Assembly (NCBI GenBank): GCA_002633005.1 | Contig: NMRA01000637.1 | Coordinates: 1 to 64,000 of the forward strand | From: Phoronis australis | Taxonomy: Eukaryota; Animalia; Phoronida | Length of the DNA: 64,000 nt | Direction of reading: 5' to 3' | In this document: one piece after another, positions 19,501 to 25,500 of the stretch | Position numbering within the stretch: the stretch's first letter is position 1 | How the letters are laid out: each line of letters begins with the position of its first letter | Position numbers and translations under genes: made by a program | Notes under the pieces: generated by a model | The model's input: only the letters and a program-made list of their open reading frames with translations | Told to the model about the DNA's origin: nothing | The model's database searches: none

Positions 19501-22500
19501 CACTTCAGTAGTGCGGTAAATTACATTCTCCATAAGTTGGTTTCATTCAATCAATATTTGGAACTTAATGCCTGAATATCAAGTATCAATAATTCTATCC
19601 GGTGTTCAGAAAGCGAATCAACCTAACCTGCCTAGAACAGTGTTACTTTCACCACATAACTAGGGTGTCCTAAGTTGCCTAATTCAATTTCTTCCTGTCT
19701 GGTGATGTCATTTTTCACAGCCCACCAATCAGTTTTAACTGTGGCACCATTTCTGTTAGGTTGTAAACTATCTTTATATGCCAGTCTTCCTCGAGATCAG
19801 GTTTATAGCTGCTACACAGATCCCACCACTGAAAATGAGTTGCATGTGTTGTTTTCAGTTAAACAATCGTATTTTAAGAGATTTTGATAGCAAAATAATG
19901 AGAAAATTGGAAAGTAAAGAATTGGTGTTAAATCATGGGGGAAGACATCTCATCCAGTCCGAAGAGTAGCAGCAACCGAGTTAAGCCAACAGTGAAGAAA
20001 TACTTACAGAATTCACGAAACAAGACAATTAAAGGTATGTCTCTGTTGAATACTGACCCGAAGCAAAGGGCCTTCACTTTTACGAAAAATCACAAATAGT
20101 TCGAAGTTAAATTTGAGTAGCAGTCTTAACATCCAGCAGCCGGGAAACTAAGCTCAACACGAGGAATGAAGCCAATTAATGCTATAATGAGATGCGCACT
20201 TGCTACTTCTGTATGCACAAATAACAAAATTTGATTATTTAGATGATTGAATGCATTTACGTTTCAGACACTATAACACAAACATATTGGCAGAATGGCT
20301 ATTTTCCAGTTGCAACAGTTTCCCAGCCACCTCTAGGCGAGACTGAAAGTCGCTTAAAAATGTAATAGCGCAACGCATATTATGCAAAGTTGTTGCTCTG
20401 ATGAGTTTACTAAGTCATTATATTCATTTACAATTCAAAATTGATTTCAAATTGATTAGATAGATTTGTTCCTAAAATCCACAATTATTTCTCGTCCACT
20501 GGACACAAATGGACTTCAAGGACATACCGGGAGTAGCACAAAGTAACTATCAAATTGTAAATGACGGGCATATTCCTACCAAATTATTTTGTTTTCCTCA
20601 TCACCTTTTTATCACCTTCACTACTGTTTTCATCCTGGTCTTAATAGTAAATAACCGTGCGAGTACCTTTCCTCAAACAGCCAGCAAACCTTAGTATTTA
20701 AGTTGTATTGGCCAAACATACAAATTAGTCAACATCTAGTTCACCACCGACCTCATCAAAGTGTAAAACTGGCTCACCCTGACTACAACTTCCACCCTAC
20801 TGACAACGCGGACTATTCTAGGCAAGATCCCGATCTTGTTCAAATAACGACATGACACATGACGGGGTGGGAACTAAGGAATTGGCAAATTTCACTTTGA
20901 AATTAAAGTTTTCTTGTTTATTTTACAAAACAAGTGCTCATTCACTTAATTTTTACGCCATTACATTTACTGGTACCAGTATGTGTAGATCAAAAGTTTA
21001 AAAACAAAGAAGAACATAATGGAAGCCCTTTCAACTTCCAGTTCATCAGCTGTCATTATACCTTCTTCATATCGGCCCATTTCTACTGTTCTGATCGACA
21101 CATACAAGCTCAACCACTAACATGATGCAAAAGTTCAAGGACAAATTGTCTTGTAGAAACACCAGGGGAAAGAGTATGTTGCAAAACATGATGGTGAATT
21201 CTTAAATGTTGCCAAAGCGTAAACATCTTTATCAAGATCACATTAACAAGAACTGTGAGCCTGTCCAATTACTGGGAAGAAGGTCACTGAACTCTATGAA
21301 ATGCTGAAGAAATCCTGAGGGTTTAATGATCCTTTGCAACATCACATGTCAAGCTATTGACTACACAGTCAGGATCACAACCAAATCACTACCACCGAGA
21401 CCTCTATTCCAACAAGCACTAATCAATAATATGTCATGCCGTTTGAATATTGCAGCGATATAAAACTGCTGGCTTGACAAAGATAAGGCTCTTAACAATC
21501 ATTATAATATTAATCACATGGCCCTGAAGAAACTCAGAATATCAGCAGGAAACCCCAGGGTGGTAAATGATACTTAGGCTATAAATATAAAACTTATACA
21601 ATCTGTCCAAGTTTGTGTACAAGTAGTGTCTTGAACAATCATGACAGCTTATATTGCTGACAGGAAGTCACCAGTTTTCTAACCTAATGCAACTAGTAGC
21701 TGGAACCAGTGAATAAATTATGTAAATTAATGTACACACATAACACGAACATGCGTGGAAAGCTATGGGACCACGAGAGGACAAAATCTGGGCGTCCCAA
21801 CTCAACACACAGTCTCAGTGGTTAGCTGCTGGTTCAAAGCAATAACAAATCAATGGACACGGTAACCAATCATGCACTGGGATACAGAGCGATGTCACAT
21901 TCCACGAGGAGTGTTTCATTAGTTAGACCGTCACCCAAGGTAGTAGAGAGACAAAGAGAGATACAGAAAGAGAGAGAAAGAGAGAGAGCTGAACGCAAAG
22001 GCACACAAGAAAAGTTACCAACCAAAAATGTCAAGACCAGTTTAATTTGAAATAGCTCGCTCTTTTAACTCTTGCTGTCAGCCGAAGCCATTACGAACAC
22101 GCAAAATATTTGCAAAGAATTTACCAGGTGGACAGAGGATCTGTAAACAGAGAGAAGCGCCCAGCCCCATAAGCGGAGCCAAGACTGGTGAAACATAAGA
22201 GCTAGCGGGAGAAAAGAAATGTAAAATAGAAAGAAACAGAGCGTAGCAGATTCAAGACGATATGTGGCACAATACCTTCAGGTAACCCAACGAGTCTATG
22301 AGTAAATTCTCTGGTTTTAAATCCCTATACATGATATCCAAATGGTGAAGGTACTCCAGCACCAGCACTATCTGTGCCGCGTAAAACCTGGAATGTGGCT
22401 CGCTGTGGGAAGAAACGAAAACAGTAAACACGGAGAGACGAGAAACAGTGTTAATGCACAGTGTGTTGGACTACGTTGGCGTCTACATGGTGGTCTGACG

Positions 22501-25500
22501 ACAGGGAAACACTACTGGTGACAGCAAGACGATGACGACAACGATGACGGCAACGCTGATGTAGGCACAGTTACGCCGCCTGGTGGTGAGCGGAGGGTGT
22601 GTTCACAGTCACCGTGAGGGGCTCCAGCTGTAAGAATACTTACTTTGAGGTAGCCGTGGCTATCTATCAAGAGGTTCTCCGGTTTAAGATCACGGTAAAC
22701 GATATCCAAGGTGTGCAGGTACTCAAATGCCAGAACGATTTGCGCGGCGTAGAATCTGGCGTGCGGTTCACTGTGGTGCAAGGAGAGATAGAGAGGGAAG
22801 GAAAGAGAGAAATACAATGTGTTAGTTGTAGTCACTGCATGCCATCGCTCATTCACAGAAACTAATCGTGTTGCGCCGAGACTGGTCCTATCTAGAAAAC
22901 GTTCACGGGAATTTTTTCGATACTAGTGGCACAAGAGAATGGCACACCTAAAGATGGAGTTGGACCGTAATTGAGAGACAGCAGCAAGTGGCAAAATCCG
23001 ACGAAGATGGCATTCACTCAATCACTTACATTCGCAACACACACATACGGACAGAGACGAGACGAGGACACCACATGAGTTAAGGGGCGACCCCTGCGGG
23101 GAGCAGTGATGGTGTCTACTTACTTTCAGGTAGCCTTCGCAATCTATAAGGATATTCTCGGGCTTTAAGTCCCTGTATATAAGGTCTAAGTGATGCAGGT
23201 ACTCAAAGGCGAGGACTATTTGCGAAGCGTAGAACCTTGAGTGAGACTCGCTGAGCAAAAAATATAGAAAATAAAACGAAAACACATCGACAGAGTAGTC
23301 ACGCATGCACAATCGAAGCAAAAATTGAGTGAAAAACGATGAGAAGACCCGACACAATTTAGCAACAAGTGTTTGCCAAGGTCATTGAAGAACAGCTTTC
23401 CATGTGTGACAACACTTTTCAACCTGGCGCAGCAGAGGAAATTAATTTTCACAAATTTAGTTATAAAAGGAGAGTTTTGAAATTCTCACTTCTCAACCAT
23501 GTTAGCATTTTTTGTGGCACATAGATAACATAAAACAACAATGTATGGAAATTTTCCATCAATTCAACACGCCACTAAGCAGATGAAAATTGGGAGTTTT
23601 GTCAGTTACCTTTGTGCCAAATAGAAGTGACAAGCCTATGCAACATTCCAATGAAAGAGTGTTAATGAGGCCTGGAGTCAAATTCAGTGAGAAAGTGATG
23701 TTCATGAATGAGAAGACTAATCCATATTTTTCTTCTTGTTTTAGATCATGTCGGCTCACTCTCAAGGTTAAATCATGACCAGTTAACAACACAAGCCAGT
23801 CTAAAATAAACCAAACGCAAACAGGAAGCAAGGTTGACGGTGATCATGGCAACGAAACTCTACTTTTGTGAATTAAAAAATACCAACTAAAACTTGTAAG
23901 TTATGCGAAAAAGGCAAGATACATGAATCACAAGCATTAATGCTACTCGTGAATTGAAAATTGTGTCACAAAACAATTTGTAGGAAACGGCTTCAGGAAT
24001 GTTTGAGATTTGTTGAAACCACAGAAGCAGAAATGGATTTGCGAGAATCATTTTGGTGGTAGTATAAGCAAACTTTGCTGTTTTCGGTCACAAGTTCACA
24101 AATGGACGATAGGAGCATCGCTATGACTATCTCCGTGTTACGTCCAAATTGTTGTTTTTCAGGAGACATAGCTAAGATTTTCTTGTAGGCACTGGAGCAA
24201 GGTTGCATGAACCAGCCTCAACTATAGGGACTCAACGAAGTTTCTTAAATATTTTGCATACTTGTGTCGTTTTTCATTTATTTGATGTCATGCTTTTCTT
24301 TGATTTAACTTTTTATGAGCTCTACGTAATGACATTTTCTAATACATTTAAAAACTGTTCCCTTAAAACAATGAAAATAAATAGGGACTTAGTTATTGAA
24401 AGTGGGAGGCTGCTACACTTTCAACAATACTGAGAATTCAAGACCACAAATGTCTAGCAGATTTAGGGAGCAAAATTTAGTTGCTATTTGGAATTGTTTC
24501 ATGCAACCGGCCACTGGTTTCTTCTCATTGGGCGTGTCAAATAAGGCAAGTCTTACGGAACTGGTAAGATCACGCAAGTGCACACAAGCACAGCATGTGA
24601 CTTTGTTAGCAATCACTTGCAAGTGAGCGCGGTTCAACACCTCCAGTAAATGCGCACGTAAATGGGCAATTCCTTCTCACTCATTGCTCAAGTATGAAAA
24701 TCAAGAAGTAAACGAATTCCCTCAAGCCAGACACGACTTTTGACCACTGTAACAATTGGCTTCAACAAGCAAAGTCAGGGTATAGAAACAATTCCATGAC
24801 TGTGCCTCTAAATTCCAAAGTTTGGAGCACTGTCAGCATGTTTATGAAGTTTAGAAGCGTTACTGCGGAATTTTTACCATTGATTCAATATTCACAGCAG
24901 GATTTCAGAGGCACGAGAACACTAGTGAAGCAAATCAGTGCTAGAGCAGTTGGTCAGGCTTTTCAAAATGATGGCCAACTATTTCGTACAAGCTGTGACC
25001 CTGAATGACCCGTTTGTACATGAAATTCAATTTTATAACACACTAGGGAAACAACTAAGACATATTTTTCAAAGTTCAAATTAGATAACCTGGTTTATAA
25101 TTTGTACTTTTGGCAGTGATTAGAAGGAAGTGTCCATTAAAAAAATATTAGCAAACAAAAGGTGTTACAAAGACAATGGAATTGGATGGGAAGCGTTGGC
25201 TGGTGTGAGTGACAGACTTCAAAGTGTTGTGACATGCAGTGTGGTGATAAAGACCCAGGACGAATGGGACATGACTAAGGGTGGGAGTGGGTGTGGCCTG
25301 GCGTTAATTGACAGGAGAGGGAGGGACTGGGAACTAAGATAAGGATTTCATTCCACTGTGCCATCTGCAACACAAACCTAGGTATTAGAGAAAAACTGTC
25401 CGGCACTTCTAAAGTGATATGGAAAAATTAATCCACCATACCCGGTGAAAGACACAATGAAAGTGAGTCGGTCTACTCAAAATGAAACTACGCGTGTTTT

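What the first reader, a model, noticed from the sequence alone, without database searches (positions are those of the whole stretch)
22276..23250. Three interchangeable catalytic-loop exons in a single PKA catalytic subunit gene
Seen: three tandem 127-nt exons (6a 23124-23250, 6b 22644-22770, 6c 22276-22402), all with intact splice sites, identical phase (2 to 0) and no stops. YRDLKPEN is invariant while codon third positions differ heavily, which suggests purifying selection on all three. They differ in helix E and the beta7-beta8 turn (IDCEGY / IDSHGY / IDSLGY; LAFEY vs LVLEY). Including zero, two or three copies shifts the frame, so exactly one must be chosen. Established, from memory: Aplysia PKA-C uses two alternative 42-residue cassettes (A1/A2) at this position, and vertebrates have one exon. 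6c resembles the Aplysia A1 cassette and 6b the vertebrate/insect sequence. Inference: a three-way switch in the kinase core, diversifying PKA by splicing rather than by paralogy. I cannot confirm whether a third cassette has been described.
Basis: partly seen in the sequence, partly recalled or inferred. Interest (0 to 1): 0.85.

Follow-up and report, generated by a model that had tools for sequence, protein, structure and literature searches.

The report
Ancient three-way switch in PKA core
This animal's protein kinase A gene carries three interchangeable copies of the exon that builds the catalytic loop, RNA reads show each copy spliced in singly and in sample-dependent proportions, and the same ordered trio occurs in five other genomes, so one gene likely makes three subtly tuned enzymes, extending the two-cassette case recalled from the sea slug Aplysia.

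Summary
Confirmed. A 10-exon PKA catalytic-subunit gene (minus strand) holds three tandem 127-nt copies of exon 6. RNA-seq joins each copy to exon 5 and exon 7 (383 junction reads, three runs of one study). No copy-to-copy or skipping joint is listed. Use differs by sample: 6a 57-59% in two runs, 6c 73% in the third, 6b only there. The trio is old: the order a-b-c recurs in 5 of 12 other genomic loci carrying a 6c exon; others keep a+c or b+c. Copies group by position, not by species (AU p=2e-5). Donor sites follow a conserved pattern: a/b end NA|GTRAG (17 of 17), c ends AG|GTA-non-consensus (12 of 12). Novelty is moderate. Two Aplysia cassettes date from 1988 (title seen, details recalled), and RefSeq already lists all three types for abalone Haliotis asinina. 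Eight literature searches found no paper describing the trio; four key papers could not be read. Functional differences between the isoforms are inferred. The scan earlier noted other duplicated PKA exons on other DNA.

The parts
44643..44688 (-). PKA-C exon 1 coding part (MGN start, phase 1)
   Evidence: 69 reads in X4 run on from 44643 into exon 2
33317..33378 (-). exon 2
31248..31376 (-). exon 3 (glycine loop; lacks the one-residue insertion seen in Aplysia and pulmonate snails)
28735..28833 (-). exon 4
   Evidence: joint 4-5 in 56-64 reads per run
27326..27408 (-). exon 5, common upstream partner of the three cassettes
23124..23250 (-). cassette 6a (S141, S148, I172; donor AAA|GTAAGT); fastest-evolving type
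   Evidence: junction reads 5-6a 22/25/9 and 6a-7 39/34/16 in X2/X3/X4
22644..22770 (-). cassette 6b (outgroup-like; donor AAA|GTAAGT)
   Evidence: junction reads 5-6b 0/0/16 and 6b-7 0/0/6
22276..22402 (-). cassette 6c (V153, L154, M163; donor AAG|GTATTG); type found in the Aplysia record
   Evidence: junction reads 5-6c 15/22/53 and 6c-7 27/22/77, also the X1 contig; clade 99/97
18451..18546 (-). exon 7 (DFG, activation loop), common downstream partner
14947..15069 (-). exon 8
   Evidence: exon 7 loose ends read into it
14380..14544 (-). exon 9
13422..13547 (-). exon 10 coding part with stop; first AATAAA downstream at 12064

Best explanation
Exons 6a, 6b and 6c are tandem duplicates of the catalytic-loop exon of one PKA catalytic-subunit gene, spliced one at a time with sample-dependent choice, and likely inherited as an ordered trio from an early lophotrochozoan ancestor, giving three predicted-active kinases that likely differ modestly in kinetics and regulation. 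Shown: single inclusion of each copy, different proportions between runs, purifying selection, and grouping by position across species. Inferred: exon choice is set by competition between donors of two classes (a and b: NA|GURAG, the U6-pairing class; c: AG|GUA-non-consensus, the U5-pairing class) together with unidentified splicing factors. Any double or skipped product would carry a premature stop and be removed by nonsense-mediated decay. The swapped residues repack helix E and beta6-beta7 under the active site without touching catalytic residues. Lineages then lost single copies (b in bryozoan-like loci, a in mussel-like loci).
For: Junction reads: 162 from exon 5 and 221 to exon 7 across the three cassettes; no 6a-6b, 6b-6c, 6a-6c or 5-7 joint reached the listing threshold of 3 reads. 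Use: X2 59/0/41%, X3 57/0/43%, X4 14/12/73%, chi-square p=6e-19. Of 80 fetched loci, 12 are genomic with a 6c exon: 5 hold a-b-c in order (L002, L009, L019, L025, L064), 4 a+c (two are the same sequence), 1 b+c, 2 are cut short. Best match is the same position in another locus for 24 of 26 cassettes. The 20 c rows form one clade at 99/97. The window's three copies are rejected as a clade, p-AU 2e-5; L019 2e-4; L009 0.045. Orthologous copies: pS 0.46-1.0 against pN 0.02-0.21 in 23 of 23 pairs. Donors: 17 of 17 a/b are non-AG|GURAG, 12 of 12 c are AG|other; of 23 single-copy controls 5 have -1A; the two classes are as described in PMC11732430 (passages). L172 is a C-spine residue and L162, I150, I180 move with the core (PMC5384802 passages); F154, L162, I163, L172 are conserved hydrophobic positions (PMC1989141 table). 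Abalone RefSeq isoforms X6, X4 and X2 differ in this segment and represent a, b and c.
Against: The three raw-read runs are one study with coded samples, so tissue is unknown, and only 18-19% of each run was read. Human-like reads are silently dropped, which may depress 6b. 6b rests on 22 reads in one run. The a copies do not form a supported clade (5 changes on the tree; not rejected as a clade, p-AU 0.30). a-like residues such as I172 also occur in single-copy PKA-C of sponges, echinoderms and chimaera, so they may be ancestral, convergent or near-neutral. The tree has only 42 columns. The donor tallies are not independent (shared ancestry, near-duplicate controls), so the Fisher p of 3e-7 is nominal. 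No enzyme data exist here. Reads cannot separate exclusion at splicing from decay afterwards.
Confidence: 0.8

Rival explanations
1. The trio is kept for regulation of amount, not for different enzymes: tissue-specific splicing machinery needs different donor types, and the three proteins are functionally equivalent.
For: Donor class is more strictly conserved than most swapped residues. a-like residues occur in ordinary single-copy PKA-C. Single copies are lost in several lineages.
Against: c-specific V153/L154/M163 are fixed in 19-20 of 20 c rows and in none of 37 a, b or single-copy rows, which equivalence would not demand. Aplysia A1 and A2 are recalled to differ in kinetics (Cheley and Bayley 1991, not read).
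Confidence: 0.12
2. Only the b/c pair is ancestral; the a copy arose several times by duplication of b and converged on similar residues.
For: a rows need 5 changes on the tree and have long branches. I172 and S148 recur in unrelated single-copy genes.
Against: a is always first in the array (9 of 9 loci tallied), has S/K/E/A rather than P at 141 in 12 of 13 rows and I/V at 172 in 13 of 13. One origin is not rejected (p-AU 0.30). a types occur in a mollusc (abalone), a polychaete cDNA (Perinereis) and bryozoans.
Confidence: 0.12
3. One or two copies are decaying pseudo-exons or an assembly artefact.
For: 6b was not seen in two of three raw-read runs or in the X1 contig.
Against: Synonymous sites are saturated while amino acids are conserved. 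Reads cover the introns between the copies and join each copy correctly. The trio recurs in five other assemblies.
Confidence: 0.02

Closest known systems
Aplysia californica PKA catalytic subunit, alternative cassettes A1/A2 (Beushausen et al. 1988, Neuron 1:853; title seen in a reference list; details recalled)
   Same: Same exon swapped (42 residues, recalled). The Aplysia record carries the 6c type, 41 of 42 identical to the window's 6c.
   Different: Two cassettes there, three here. The second cassette of pulmonate and sacoglossan snails resembles abalone b, so those lineages likely lack a; the tree does not settle this (p-AU 0.20).
Haliotis asinina RefSeq isoforms X6 (XP_067679352.1), X4 (XP_067679350.1) and X2 (P0201)
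   Same: Three versions of this segment in one otherwise identical kinase core, of types a, b and c.
   Different: Automated annotation only. The passages read of the paper whose supplement lists X6 and X4 (PMC12608923) discuss N-terminal variants and contain no 'mutually'. Exon order in abalone was not checked.
Two-cassette annotations in oysters, mussels, scallops, Mya, Octopus, chiton, pulmonates, Lingula (b+c) and Watersipora (a+c)
   Same: Same exon, same types.
   Different: Only two types were seen per species, but member lists are capped at 15, so a third may be hidden.
Vertebrate PRKACA/PRKACB (PMC3625193, passages)
   Same: Ten exons, same core length; exon 6 covers the same residues.
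   Different: Single exon 6; diversity comes from paralogues and 5' exons.
Mutually exclusive tandem duplicated exons in general (Dscam, myosin heavy chain, 14-3-3; mechanisms recalled)
   Same: Homologous, same-length, same-phase exons used one at a time.
   Different: No conserved docking/selector pairing was found here.

Membership tests
[quoted passage not shown] | kinase core matching PKA C-alpha with catalytic motifs intact | tested here: met
   PDB hit E about 1e-19 to residues 140-181; up to 272 of 293 constitutive residues identical to lophotrochozoan PKA-C
[quoted passage not shown] | ten exons and 335-residue core 16-350 | tested here: met
   351 aa with Met, ten exons; family rule from PMC3625193
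Mutually exclusive tandem duplicated exons | adjacent homologous exons of equal length and phase | tested here: met
Mutually exclusive tandem duplicated exons | each copy spliced to both flanking exons | tested here: met
   6b in one of three raw-read runs only
Mutually exclusive tandem duplicated exons | no double inclusion or skipping | tested here: met
   no such joint at 3 or more reads against 383 single-inclusion reads; decay could hide some
Mutually exclusive tandem duplicated exons | protein-level evidence for each isoform | not testable with these tools
   needs proteomics or ribosome profiling
Aplysia A1/A2 system | orthologous cassette | tested here: met
   Aplysia c cassette falls in the 99/97 c clade
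Aplysia A1/A2 system | exactly two cassettes | tested here: not met
   three here; the figure of two is from the 1988 title
Aplysia A1/A2 system | isoforms differ in kinetics and R-subunit binding | not testable with these tools
   recalled for Aplysia, no assay here
Docking-site/selector RNA pairing (Dscam type) | one conserved intronic element pairing with each cassette's selector | tested here: inconclusive
   window duplexes -21 to -31 kcal/mol against shuffles -23 to -30; no 9-mer shared by 3 of 6 triple loci; only 600-700 nt of flank scanned, 4 shuffles
Steric exclusion (branch point close to upstream donor) | branch point within about 50 nt of the upstream donor (rule recalled) | tested here: not met
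   AG-free zones 62 and 66 nt in introns of 353 and 241 nt; branch points inferred, not mapped
U2/U12 spliceosome incompatibility | one cassette flanked by a minor-class splice site | tested here: not met
   all donors are GTAAGT or GTATTG, none of the recalled U12 form
NMD-enforced exclusion | wrong combinations give a stop more than 50 nt before the last junction | tested here: met
   353-635 nt; action in vivo untested

The most novel reading that the evidence does not exclude
For over 500 million years lophotrochozoans have switched the PKA catalytic core with a splice-site code: cassettes a and b carry U6-class donors and c a U5-class donor, held even at a synonymous lysine codon, so the cell's general spliceosome state (LUC7, METTL16, SNRNP27K) flips which kinase core a tissue makes. 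The overlooked a cassette, with an isoleucine in the catalytic spine, would be a tissue-restricted PKA with its own kinetics.
Probability: 0.25. Interest if true: 0.75.

Novelty: new variant of a known kind. Interest (0 to 1): 0.47.

Why it matters
PKA is the model kinase and the core of molluscan learning work. Vertebrates diversify it by gene duplication; these animals swap the catalytic-loop exon instead. Recognising an ordered ancestral trio with lineage losses puts the Aplysia pair in context. It explains mis-fused gene models in public databases (Pinctada, Mytilus, Mya, Tegillarca, Biomphalaria). It offers three natural variants of the kinase hydrophobic core for assay. [quoted passage not shown]

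Tried and rejected
Local hairpin behind the a/b donors: visible by eye, but mean z -0.31 in 17 donors, the same as for c donors, p=0.30 against 33 controls; the lower raw energy goes with higher GC. Docking/selector pairing and shared intronic words: nothing consistent. Steric exclusion and U12 incompatibility: not met. Fourth cassette: none. Double-scoring hits from Oppiella, Ostertagia and Ixodes were dropped as repeats of larger blocks, not cassette pairs. No whole genome is held, so paralogues elsewhere were not checked. No listed holder of the 3' stretch is on record as RNA; the raw-read runs came by species label. The phylum of the window's organism could not be fixed: constitutive exons are 267-272 of 293 identical to bivalves, cephalopods and annelids alike. 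L002 cannot be called a mollusc on its 6c sequence alone. Paper searches for the trio listed no description. Beushausen 1992, Beushausen and Bayley 1990 and Sossin and Abrams 2009 are not held. Passages of PMC6085516, PMC3248386, PMC13466552 and PMC1871615 said nothing on cassettes; PMC2724707 reports only N-terminal variants in Schistosoma. Searches of earlier findings by sequence and by place were blank. No structure was predicted.
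Full report
Observation. The three exons are on the minus strand at 23250-23124 (6a), 22770-22644 (6b) and 22402-22276 (6c). Each is 127 nt with AG/GT ends and an open 42-codon frame. They sit between exon 5 and exon 7 of a ten-exon gene from 44688 to 13422 that gives 351 residues with any single copy. 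The segment equals residues 140-181 of PKA C-alpha: helix E, the catalytic loop, beta7 and beta8 (element names from established knowledge). The copies differ at 6-9 amino acids but at 23-29 third codon positions; pS is 0.75-0.92 and pN 0.11-0.16. Zero, two or three copies give a stop 353-635 nt before the last junction. No fourth copy was found.

Expression. Four runs were offered: one contig set and three raw-read runs of one study. Laid on exons 4-7, the stranded reads show all six expected joints at the predicted intron lengths. Counts for X2/X3/X4: 5-6a 22/25/9, 6a-7 39/34/16, 5-6b 0/0/16, 6b-7 0/0/6, 5-6c 15/22/53, 6c-7 27/22/77. No joint between cassettes and no 5-7 skip was listed; the threshold is 3 reads. 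Proportions differ strongly between X4 and the other two (chi-square p=6e-19). Limits: one study, coded samples, 18-19% of each run read, human-like reads filtered out, 6b seen in one run.

Distribution. Protein searches with 6a, 6c and a bryozoan 6a-type region listed 120 hits each, of 941, 1390 and 483. The top hits include gene models that wrongly fuse two copies, in Pinctada, Mytilus, Mya, Tegillarca and Biomphalaria; hits from Oppiella, Ostertagia and Ixodes repeat larger blocks and were set aside. The 6c type occurs in gastropods, bivalves, cephalopods, annelids, Lingula and Watersipora and a chiton. A scan of metagenome contigs kept 80 of 124 loci. Twelve are genomic with a 6c exon: five have three spliceable copies in the order a-b-c, four have a+c (two of them the same sequence), one has b+c, and two are cut short. 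The 6c of L009 is identical to that of the tubeworms Ridgeia and Lamellibrachia. The supplement of PMC12608923 shows an a-type cDNA in Perinereis. It also shows, among its 26 mollusc rows, abalone isoforms X6 (a type) and X4 (b type); with X2 (c type) all three are in RefSeq for Haliotis asinina.

History. In a tree of 59 rows and 42 columns the 20 c rows form one clade (99/97). The b rows sit among single-copy outgroups, and the a rows lie to one side with flatworm sequences but without support. For 24 of 26 cassettes the best match is the same position in another locus; the two misses are long-branch a copies. Holding the window's three copies together is rejected (p-AU 2e-5), as for L019 (2e-4) and weakly L009 (0.045); one origin of a is not rejected (0.30) (32 rows, LG+G4). 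So the duplications predate the split of these lineages. Against a firm reading of a: I172 and related residues also occur in single-copy genes of sponges, echinoderms and chimaera. Among the six triple loci, mean identity is 72% for a, 94% for b and 89% for c.

What changes in the protein. Catalytic residues are invariant. c has V/M153, L154 and M163 in 20 of 20 rows; a has I/V172 in 13 of 13 and a non-proline at 141 in 12 of 13; positions 176-177 vary between species in every class. L172 belongs to the catalytic spine, and L162, I150 and I180 to the synchronised core (PMC5384802, passages). F154, L162, I163 and L172 are conserved hydrophobic positions (PMC1989141, table). I infer active kinases with a repacked core and modest differences in kinetics or regulation, in line with the recalled Aplysia A1/A2 biochemistry, which I could not read.

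How one copy is chosen. All 17 a/b donors examined are NA|GTRAG, 16 of them using the lysine codon AAA. All 12 c donors are AAG|GTA without the GURAG consensus. Among 23 single-copy controls, 5 have A at -1 (L008 left out as a duplicate of L007; rows not independent). These match the two donor classes that pair preferentially with U6 or U5 snRNA and that respond differently to LUC7 and METTL16 (PMC11732430, passages). This is my best lead for regulation and is untested. It separates c from a/b but not a from b. Local hairpins, docking/selector pairing, steric exclusion and minor-spliceosome incompatibility found no support. Nonsense-mediated decay would clear errors.

Comparison and novelty. 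The two-cassette Aplysia case is in print (1988 title). Two types per species are widely annotated, and three are annotated in abalone. Eight searches of the held library listed no account of the trio, its conserved order, its losses or the donor pattern. PMC3625193 (passages) and PMC12608923 (passages and supplement rows) take one variant per gene or discuss N-termini. Older subscription papers were not available and may mention a third cassette; the PMC12608923 supplement was cut when stored. Earlier notes of this scan report duplicated PKA exon pairs in other genomes; I saw exon-5 duplicates myself in four loci.

Verdict. A real, expressed, ancient three-way mutually exclusive exon cluster in the PKA catalytic core: a new variant of a known kind. 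Interest 0.47.

Noticed in passing
window 56138-56168 and 51533-51572, minus strand: Two candidate alternative first exons (short frames from ATG ending in phase 1 at GTAAGT), with read depth on the PKA strand mainly in X2 and X3, where the MGN exon 1 is weaker. Joints to exon 2 were not among the listed rows.
   Followed up: partly
window 51942-58164, plus strand: A GT..AG joint in 4 and 2 reads and in the X1 contig: a spliced transcript antisense to the PKA upstream region.
   Followed up: no
L051 1484-2400; L058 341-568; L062 4369-4584; L063 4932-5159: Two or three tandem copies of PKA exon 5 (hinge) beside a single exon 6: a separate duplication of the neighbouring exon in other animals.
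   Followed up: partly
L061, L068 and similar loci: Single b-type exon 6 between exons 5 and 7, with a relaxed AAG|GTC donor; if these animals lost a and c, the donor pattern decays once the switch is gone. Taxon not established.
   Followed up: partly
window 2771-3766 and 5649-6101, plus strand: Two PARP-like open frames in a local duplication, below Pfam's cut-off.
   Followed up: partly
window 9697-10131, plus strand: THAP-domain open frame, possibly transposon-derived.
   Followed up: partly
window 38364-39630: 633-bp tandem duplicate, 98.9% identical, joined at a single N in intron 1; likely an assembly artefact.
   Followed up: no
P0009-P0013, P0159-P0161: Public mollusc gene models fuse two cassettes into one protein by shifting splice sites; these are annotation errors.
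   Followed up: yes
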